Shown here: in pieces, positions 10,029 to 10,574 of the stretch
Layout of the letters: every line of letters begins with the position of its first letter
How positions within the stretch are numbered: position 1 is the stretch's first letter
NCBI RefSeq assembly: GCF_028641065.1
Contig: NC_073398.1
Coordinates: forward strand, 25,172,001 to 25,236,000
Reading direction: 5' to 3'
DNA: 64,000 nt
Origin: Leucoraja erinacea
Lineage: Eukaryota
Made by a program: the position numbers and the translations under genes
Notes under the pieces: generated by a model
Databases searched by the model: none
Seen by the model: only the letters and a program-made list of their open reading frames with translations
Told to the model about the DNA's origin: nothing

Positions 10029-10144
10029 GTGACTACGAGGTATCCATCAAGTTCAACGATGAGCATATCCCAGATTCTCCATTCGTTGTTCCGATTGCTT
10101 CTCCCTCGGATGCTGCCCGCAGACTCACTGTTACCAGTCTTCAG
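10029..10144 (+). CDS. FLNC: Filamin C exon ending in the CAG (Gln) codon homologous to the FLNA/FLNB Q/R editing site
   Basis: [39 protein letters not shown]|gtgggc. Confidence 0.95.
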
Positions 10145-10574
10145 GTGGGCACAAGGCAGGCACTTAATGTGCTTCAGAGGGGTGTGTGTGTGTGTAGTTT
10201 GTTTGGGAGGGATGTGCTATGCCAGTAATTCAAACTTCCTGTTCAAACCATTATAGAATGCATGCCTTGCACAGTTGATGGGTGATGGTGCGATTACTCT
10301 AGGACTTTAGCTTGGTCTCTTGGCATTCCTGATGGCTTTGCAAATGTTGTACCTAGATCTCTTGTGCCAATTGGGCTGATCTGACTTCACTCAAGTGGAT
10401 TTTTAGATTGATCCATGGTTCCAGTTGGGGGACACTCGGATTGACTTACTTTCTTTAGTTTGGCACATTTTGAAGGGGCAGTGTCAAAATTTAGTGTCAC
10501 ACAATAAATCATGTACAGATGACTATACCTTGGGCATATGTTTTCAAATGTTTGTCCATTTAATCTATGTCCAG

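What the first reader, a model, noticed from the sequence alone, without database searches (positions are those of the whole stretch)
10126..10290. Candidate ADAR editing hairpin over the FLNC Gln codon homologous to the FLNA/FLNB Q/R recoding site
Seen: the exon ends ...LTVTSLQ (CAG at 10142-10144) and the next 150 nt of intron can fold back on it. Pairings: CACUGUUACC 10126-10135 with GGUGAUGGUG 10281-10290 (10 of 10, three G-U); UCAG 10141-10144 with UUGA 10275-10278; UG 10146-10147 with CA 10272-10273; CAAGGCA 10152-10158 with UGCCUUG 10263-10269; GCA 10160-10162 with UGC 10259-10261; UAAUG 10165-10169 with CAUUA 10249-10253; and an inner stem GUUUGGG-AGGGA 10201-10212 with UUCCU-g-UUCAAAC 10236-10248. 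All helices nest in the right order. A second partial complement (CUUGUGCC..GGGCUG, about 10361-10378) could compete. Established: FLNA (Q2341R) and FLNB (Q2327R) are A-to-I recoded at this exon-terminal CAG in Ig repeat 22 through an intronic editing-complementary sequence; I do not know of this being described for FLNC. Inference: this FLNC may retain an ancestral editing structure that recodes Q to R at A10143 and also covers the 5' splice site, coupling editing to splicing. The A faces U rather than the favoured C, so editing may be weak.
Basis: partly seen in the sequence, partly recalled or inferred. Interest (0 to 1): 0.8.

Follow-up and report, generated by a model that had tools for sequence, protein, structure and literature searches.

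The report
Filamin C keeps ancient editing arm
In this cartilaginous fish, the muscle gene filamin C still carries the short intron signature of the RNA-editing site of its sister genes filamin A and B, but its predicted pairing partner is weak and the one spliced assembly covering the site reads unedited, so it is likely a worn-down remnant of an editing structure older than the three genes.

Summary
Coordinates and all listed pairings are right, and the gene is FLNC. The 165-nt hairpin as drawn is not supported: z -0.59, 14 kcal/mol above the best fold, and lost once flanks are added. The second complement lies in a dispersed repeat.

New here: intron bases +4 to +15 match the intron next to the edited mouse Flnb site at 11 of 12 (1 of 7015 GT starts in the window). 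FLNB read-throughs keep this motif (6 of 6); bony-vertebrate FLNC does not (0 of 62). The outer 27-bp duplex with 10259-10290 is borderline (23 of 500 shuffles match energy and register) but keeps its energy in three relatives. This genome's FLNB has a strong duplex (0 of 60 shuffles).

No editing was seen. One relative's spliced contig and two transcript-type proteins read CAG/Q, raw reads gave no coverage, and mouse Flnc is reported unedited.

Best reading: a degenerate ancestral editing duplex, edited little or not at all (0.5). Active Q/R recoding: about 0.17. The scan noted FLNB and FLNA duplexes on other DNA; none of the look-ups returned an FLNC one.

The parts
10029..10144 (+). FLNC exon ending in the Gln codon CAG (10142-10144); candidate A at 10143, position -2 of the donor
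   Evidence: spliced 10144 to 10575 in contig X17
10126..10162 (+). 5' arm: exon end plus intron start, homologous to the FLNB editing arm
   Evidence: no change listed in three relatives; 6 of 7 same-residue codons identical to the FLNB paralogue against 19 of 49 elsewhere in the two exons, p 0.026
10148..10159 (+). Intron +4 to +15 motif (GGCACAAGG core), one base shorter after the donor than in FLNB
   Evidence: 11 of 12 to the mouse Flnb intronic primer, 8 of 12 to this genome's FLNB; read-through peptides
10259..10290 (+). Candidate degenerate partner (ECS); predicted 27 bp with the arm, with a 5x2 loop two pairs 5' of the A and two 1x1 mismatches 3' of it
   Evidence: energy kept or improved in relatives, -32.5, -36.8, -33.4
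10103..10181 (+). Predicted local competitor: exon 10109-10120 pairs with 10145-10158 and 10174-10175, and a hairpin forms at 10159-10173; A10143 is left unpaired
   Evidence: minimum-energy fold of 10090-10320; prediction only
10165..10253 (+).
   Evidence: p 0.002-0.06; 10169 G>A in X23 and 10204 T>C in X20 and X23 break the drawn pairs
10315..10387 (.). Dispersed repeat relic holding the 'second complement' 10361-10378
   Evidence: 19 other places at 76-89% identity among 20 scored; extra contigs pile up here in three DNA runs
10575..10707 (+). Next FLNC exon
   Evidence: best PDB match Filamin-C 2d7p, 72.4 bits, against Filamin-B 2eeb, 61.9

Best explanation
The FLNC exon end and intron start match the edited arm of FLNA/FLNB and are likely an inherited copy of it, predicted to pair only loosely with 10259-10290, so that A10143 is likely edited at a low level or not at all. 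Inferred history: the single pre-duplication vertebrate filamin already had an exon-intron duplex over this Gln codon. FLNA and FLNB kept it, bony-vertebrate FLNC lost it, and this fish's FLNC keeps the arm and a short, mismatched, drifting partner without the long extension that FLNB has. Inferred mechanism when it does form: the nascent intron folds back over the codon and the donor, and ADAR2 could deaminate A10143 before splicing; a local fold over the donor is predicted to win most of the time. Shown: gene identity, codon, motif match, complementarity, changes in relatives, unedited majority transcript in one relative. Inferred: common ancestry of the motif, that the duplex forms in cells, the editing level.
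For: Motif: 11 of 12 to the mouse Flnb intronic primer; only this site reaches 11 among 7015 GT starts in the window. Read-through peptides: FLNB-type exons go on VRH(K/E)ET in 6 of 6, a mammal-type FLNA exon goes on VRH, and 0 of 62 FLNC-type rows show the motif in FLNB's frame or in this gene's. Tree: window-type protein with FLNC (89/93), outside FLNA+FLNB (88/79), so gene mislabelling is unlikely. Exon arm: synonymous identity to FLNB is higher than elsewhere, p 0.026. Partner: two G-U pairs are Watson-Crick in X23, a mismatch is G-U in X20; 8-10% of random 4-change sets keep the energy as well as X23 does. Weakness: z -0.68, -1.27, -1.56 for window, X20, X23; A-U probability in context 0.05 or less, against 0.835 for the FLNB paralogue. 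Transcripts: X17 contig, depth 490, reads CAG; P0002 and P0228 have Q; R occurs in 1 FLNA and 1 FLNB row and in 0 of 19 FLNC rows.
Against: The mouse match was noticed after the fact and rests on one primer. Against this genome's FLNB the motif scores 8 of 12, which 164 of 7015 GT starts reach, and six other paralogous intron pairs score 3-7. Another FLNC donor at 13128 also carries GCACAAG, so donor neighbourhoods may be biased. Low synonymous change near donors can come from splicing signals (recalled). The partner is not conserved in sequence (5 changes in 32 nt over X20 and X23; 3 of 5 stabilise, against 24 of 96 possible single changes) and is not significant by energy alone (35 of 307 real tiles). 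No shark, ray or chimaera FLNC intron beyond three close relatives could be obtained. Support for the FLNC clade and for FLNA+FLNB is below the starred level. The transcript data cannot tell 0% from 40% editing.
Confidence: 0.5

Rival explanations
1. The arm is an inherited relic or a splicing element, and the complement at 10259-10290 is chance; no duplex and no editing.
For: Duplex energy is matched by 11-15% of nulls. The arm shows no change in relatives while the partner changes at 5 of 32 places. The outer helix vanishes in context. G-U to Watson-Crick changes are transitions, the commonest class.
Against: Only 23 of 500 shuffles match in energy and register. Energy is kept in three relatives, and the single X20 change is among the 3 most stabilising of 96. 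The rest of the intron start aligns only patchily to FLNB, so plain slow decay does not easily explain an 11 of 12 match.
Confidence: 0.25
2. One reading: a working ADAR site that recodes Q to R in at least 10% of FLNC transcripts in some tissue and slows splicing of this intron.
For: Same codon, same -2 position and 27 predicted pairs over the A; about 20 bp is said to suffice for the ADAR2 deaminase domain (PMC5654063, passages). X20 is more stable (-36.8). Sharks edit GRIA2 (PMC8659423, passages). Assemblies hide minority editing: R shows in only 2 of 85 junction rows although mammalian FLNA and FLNB are edited.
Against: Majority A in the X17 contig and Q in two transcript-type proteins. 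Mismatches on both sides of the A, no long adjacent stem, partner not conserved, competitor fold predicted. Mouse Flnc unedited in heart, skeletal muscle and bladder.
Confidence: 0.17
3. The motif match is coincidence, or came into FLNC by gene conversion from FLNA or FLNB in cartilaginous fishes; nothing ancestral is retained.
For: One after-the-fact comparison; a similar 7-mer follows the donor at 13128; the exon end is close to FLNB at the DNA level.
Against: 11 of 12 is unique among 7015 GT starts. The motif is closer to mouse Flnb than to this genome's FLNB, which a recent conversion from FLNB would not give. This genome's FLNA intron could not be read, so conversion from FLNA is untested.
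Confidence: 0.08

Closest known systems
Mammalian FLNB Q/R site (ADAR2; PMC6161736 passages; PMC10984384 passages)
   Same: Exon-terminal CAG with the A at -2 of the donor; intron +4 to +15 matches the mouse intronic primer at 11 of 12; duplex predicted to cover the donor.
   Different: No A at intron +4 (edited in mouse Flnb); partner short, mismatched and 110-130 nt away; no editing seen.
Mammalian FLNA Q2341R site with intron-42 ECS (PMC6166124 passages; adjacent 36-bp inducer stem in PMC5654063 Table 1)
   Same: Homologous codon; nearby intronic partner (an edited intronic A lies 213 nt from the human site, PMC4053846); a mammal-type FLNA exon reads on VRH.
   Different: FLNA has a proven ECS and an inducer stem; here the inner stems are unsupported and broken in relatives.
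FLNB paralogue in the same genome (G000:C16)
   Same: Same exon end, related intron start, A predicted opposite U.
   Different: 33-bp core at -39.5 (0 of 60 shuffles), extended to -94.8, about 1.6 kb away, p(A-U) 0.835 in context. The FLNC duplex has none of this strength.
Mouse Flnc (PMC6161736, passages)
   Same: Orthologous gene and codon; reported unedited by Sanger sequencing in three tissues.
   Different: Mammal-type FLNC read-throughs start VCA/VCV/VCP and lack the motif; this fish keeps it.

Membership tests
FLNC orthologue | Groups with FLNC in a tree and by best match | tested here: met
   FLNC clade 89/93, sister to whale shark P0004 97/99; best PDB match of the next exon is Filamin-C; one search agrees, but its FLNA chains cover only part of the exon
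FLNC orthologue | Neighbours ATP6V1F and SPMIP1; insertion in Ig repeat 20 (both recalled as FLNC marks) | tested here: met
   ATP-synt_F at 20029-20187; SPMIP1 at 27255-27719; insertion exon within 8252-8785, shared with P0004
FLNA/FLNB-type Q/R ADAR recoding site | Exon-terminal CAG at the homologous codon, A at -2 of the donor | tested here: met
   position per PMC10984384
FLNA/FLNB-type Q/R ADAR recoding site | Conserved intron-start arm | tested here: met
   11 of 12 to mouse Flnb; VRH(K/E) read-throughs; only 8 of 12 to this genome's FLNB
FLNA/FLNB-type Q/R ADAR recoding site | Intronic partner giving a duplex beyond chance | tested here: inconclusive
   38 of 300, 35 of 307 and 74 of 500 by energy; 23 of 500 with register
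FLNA/FLNB-type Q/R ADAR recoding site | Duplex is the favoured fold in its natural context | tested here: not met
   p(A10143-U10276) 0.05 or less with flanks in window, X20 and X23, 0.15 in one wider frame; FLNB control 0.835. Prediction only.
FLNA/FLNB-type Q/R ADAR recoding site | Partner conserved across species (stated for most conserved sites in PMC4053846) | tested here: inconclusive
   5 changes in 32 nt in two of three close relatives, energy kept; no distant species available
FLNA/FLNB-type Q/R ADAR recoding site | Long adjacent stem (editing inducer element; listed for FLNA, not for FLNB, in PMC5654063) | tested here: not met
   inner helices improbable and broken in relatives; the FLNB paralogue has a long extension
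FLNA/FLNB-type Q/R ADAR recoding site | A>G in RNA against DNA at the site | tested here: inconclusive
   majority A in 1 covering contig of 4 runs laid; Q in P0002 and P0228; minority editing invisible in contigs
FLNA/FLNB-type Q/R ADAR recoding site | Editing depends on ADAR2 and on the partner | not testable with these tools
   needs a minigene or knockdown

The most novel reading that the evidence does not exclude
Cartilaginous fishes recode filamin C Q to R at this site in some tissues through a third, FLNC-specific duplex. The filamin Q/R editing structure would then predate the duplications that made FLNA, FLNB and FLNC, and bony vertebrates would have lost it from their striated-muscle filamin.
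Probability: 0.2. Interest if true: 0.68.

Novelty: new variant of a known kind. Interest (0 to 1): 0.42.

Why it matters
FLNA/FLNB Q/R is one of the best-studied recoding events outside the brain, and FLNC is reported as the unedited member. A retained arm in a cartilaginous-fish FLNC would date the editing structure to before the three genes split, and would turn 'FLNC is not edited' into a loss in bony vertebrates. It would also give a natural strong/weak pair (FLNB and FLNC in one genome) for testing what an ADAR duplex needs. If editing is found, a third filamin is recoded. If the motif is chance, this is an ordinary intron. Searches returned no paper on FLNC editing in any fish; subscription papers are not in the library.

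Tried and rejected
Run search: no RNA holder listed on record; 17 rows are guessed RNA. Raw RNA run X24: 1 read laid, intronic, from about 6% of the run, so no test. No positive-control lay on FLNB was possible.

A first candidate FLNB partner seen by eye about 1 kb into the intron was rejected: not better than shuffles. The idea that 10361-10378 is the true FLNB-ECS homologue was rejected because it sits in a repeat. The one tile that beat the FLNB duplex is the antisense of the FLNC arm itself, so 0 of 311 unrelated tiles do.

This genome's FLNA Gln exon is missing from its contig. Metagenome scan: 24 loci, all distant filamins (45-65% identity), no use for the intron. Protein searches gave no cartilaginous-fish read-through. 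Rfam: three matches far below gathering scores. The supplement of PMC6161736 holds 1,466 characters of text and its Suppl. Fig. 5 (mouse Flnb duplex) could not be seen, so the mouse ECS was not compared. One search resolved 7 junctions, one mis-mapped in FLNB and dropped, and left 3 gaps.

Full report
Gene and site. The window holds the 3' part of a filamin gene. The exon 10029-10144 ends in CAG, the intron runs 10145-10574, and a spliced contig joins these ends. The next exon matches Filamin-C best in the PDB. A 20-row tree puts a protein identical to the window at both exons with whale shark and named FLNC sequences (89/93), apart from FLNA and FLNB. ATP6V1F and SPMIP1 follow downstream; that these flank human FLNC is recalled. 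The host is a cartilaginous fish by the tree; that it may be a skate is a guess. G000 also holds FLNB (C16; tree 100/99) and an FLNA-type gene on a 28-kb contig that lacks the Gln exon.

The drawn hairpin. Every listed pair is valid. The whole is not special: z -0.59 and +0.72, and the drawn fold is 14 kcal/mol above the minimum. The inner helices have probabilities of 0.002-0.06. The second complement is inside a repeat found at 19 other places of 20 scored.

The outer duplex alone. Arm 10126-10162 pairs best with 10259-10290: 27 bp, -32.5 kcal/mol. By energy, 38 of 300 and 74 of 500 shuffles and 35 of 307 real tiles do as well. With the A paired and at least 10 bp on each side, 23 of 500 do. 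The arm limits were chosen after the fact, so these numbers flatter the duplex.

Control. The same test on the FLNB paralogue finds a partner about 1.6 kb into the intron at -39.5 against -26.7 +/- 1.8 (0 of 60). It extends to -94.8, and the A pairs with a U at p 0.835 when 1.8 kb is folded. The method therefore sees a strong duplex where one exists, and FLNC's is far weaker. An earlier scan note (e1-9081520) reports an FLNB duplex in a likely shark genome; I saw it.

Relatives. Three DNA assemblies were laid (40 of 64 difference rows shown. By the tallies all 7 of X18, 17 of 18 of X20 and 25 of 48 of X23 are shown, and the hidden X23 rows probably lie past 10314, which is an inference). No change is listed in 10126-10168. 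In the partner, X23 has 10286 T>C and 10287 G>A (both G-U to Watson-Crick), 10263 T>A (breaks a pair) and 10274 G>A; X20 has 10271 A>T (mismatch to G-U). Duplex energies are -32.5, -36.8 and -33.4; 8-10% of random four-change sets do as well as X23. Hairpin z-scores stay weak (-1.27, -1.56). The partner keeps its pairing but not its letters. The drawn inner pairs at 10169 and 10204 are broken; in the minimum-energy register 10204 T>C improves a pair and 10198 T>C breaks one.

The retained arm. PMC6161736 prints an intronic primer for mouse Flnb pre-mRNA (passages). Its reverse complement matches window 10148-10159 at 11 of 12; no other of 7015 GT starts in the window reaches 11, and 3 reach 10. 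That the primer starts at intron +5 is inferred from this genome's FLNB (9 of 12). Genomic frames that read from this exon into the intron show the first intron codons in many vertebrates (86 rows, classed by me from exon residues; the rows carry no species names). FLNB-type: VRH(K/E)ET in 6 of 6 with read-through, 1 without. FLNA-type, teleost-like: VRL or VRF in 17 of 17. FLNC-type: varied, and 0 of 62 fit the motif in FLNB's frame or in this gene's. A mammal-type FLNA row reads VRH. The exon half of the arm is also closer to FLNB at silent sites (6 of 7 against 19 of 49, p 0.026). Cautions: against this genome's FLNB the motif scores 8 of 12, reached by 164 of 7015 starts; six other intron pairs score 3-7; and the donor at 13128 is followed by a 7-base piece of the same motif.

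RNA. The only raw-read run gave no coverage. Of four contig sets, one covers the site: X17, another species, spliced, depth 490, reading CAG. P0002 and P0228, Logan proteins identical to the window here, have Q. Among 85 junction rows R appears once in FLNA and once in FLNB, and in 0 of 19 FLNC rows after moving two misclassed FLNB rows. These data exclude only majority editing in those samples.

Literature seen. PMC6161736 (passages; supplement text empty of the terms): mouse Flnc unedited, Flnb edited by ADAR2 with a further site at intron +4. PMC6166124 (passages): FLNA ECS in intron 42. PMC10984384 (passages): edited Flna and Flnb splice less efficiently. PMC4053846 (passages, supplement rows): zebrafish flna and flnb edited at 19% and 23%; FLNC does not occur in that file. 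PMC8659423 (passages): sharks edit GRIA2; filamins were tested in whale. PMC5654063 (passages): inducer stems. bioRxiv 2020.01.19.911685 (one passage; supplements closed): filamin recoding in sea urchin, fly and acorn worm, site not stated. PMC9546289: search listing only.

Verdict. The hairpin as drawn is over-read, but its core idea survives in a narrower form. The arm is likely ancestral (about 0.9), the partner is likely real at roughly two in three, and recoding at 10% or more has about 0.17. It resembles the FLNA/FLNB Q/R site in layout but is not filed as a member, because context folding and an inducer stem were tested and not met and editing is not shown. Novelty: new variant of a known kind. 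Interest 0.42.

Noticed in passing
G000:C16:3245829-3245868 with 3247448-3247489 (L006 830-869, 2449-2490): Strong predicted FLNB Q/R duplex about 1.6 kb into a 4.9-kb intron, with a long extension; candidate A at C16:3245847. A Logan protein identical at both exons (P0216) has Q.
   Followed up: partly
G000:C686 (L004, L007): The FLNA-type gene lies on a 28-kb, repeat-rich contig that ends before the Gln exon; its intron start is unreadable.
   Followed up: partly
P0091, P0118, P0134-P0169 (FLNA-type rows); P0432: Teleost-like FLNA introns start with a conserved VRL/VRF read-through (17 of 17), different from the VRH of a mammal-type FLNA row: a lineage-specific FLNA arm.
   Followed up: no
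P0259, P0297: Logan FLNA and FLNB proteins with R at the site, probably assemblies of majority-edited transcripts.
   Followed up: no
L019-L042: None of 24 distant filamin loci has GT right after the aligned codon (two align poorly), so the intron that makes the duplex possible may be younger than these lineages; several seem to have a donor five codons later.
   Followed up: no
window 13128-13138: A later FLNC donor is followed by GCACAAG, part of the same motif; likely chance.
   Followed up: partly
window 10315-10387: Old dispersed repeat, about 80% identical to other copies; family not identified.
   Followed up: partly
window 20029-20190 and 27255-27719: ATP6V1F first exon and an SPMIP1 frame downstream of FLNC.
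   Followed up: yes
window 35764-37067, 40259-40672, 61669-62052 (minus strand): Frames that look like LINE reverse-transcriptase fragments (recalled likeness, not scanned).
   Followed up: no
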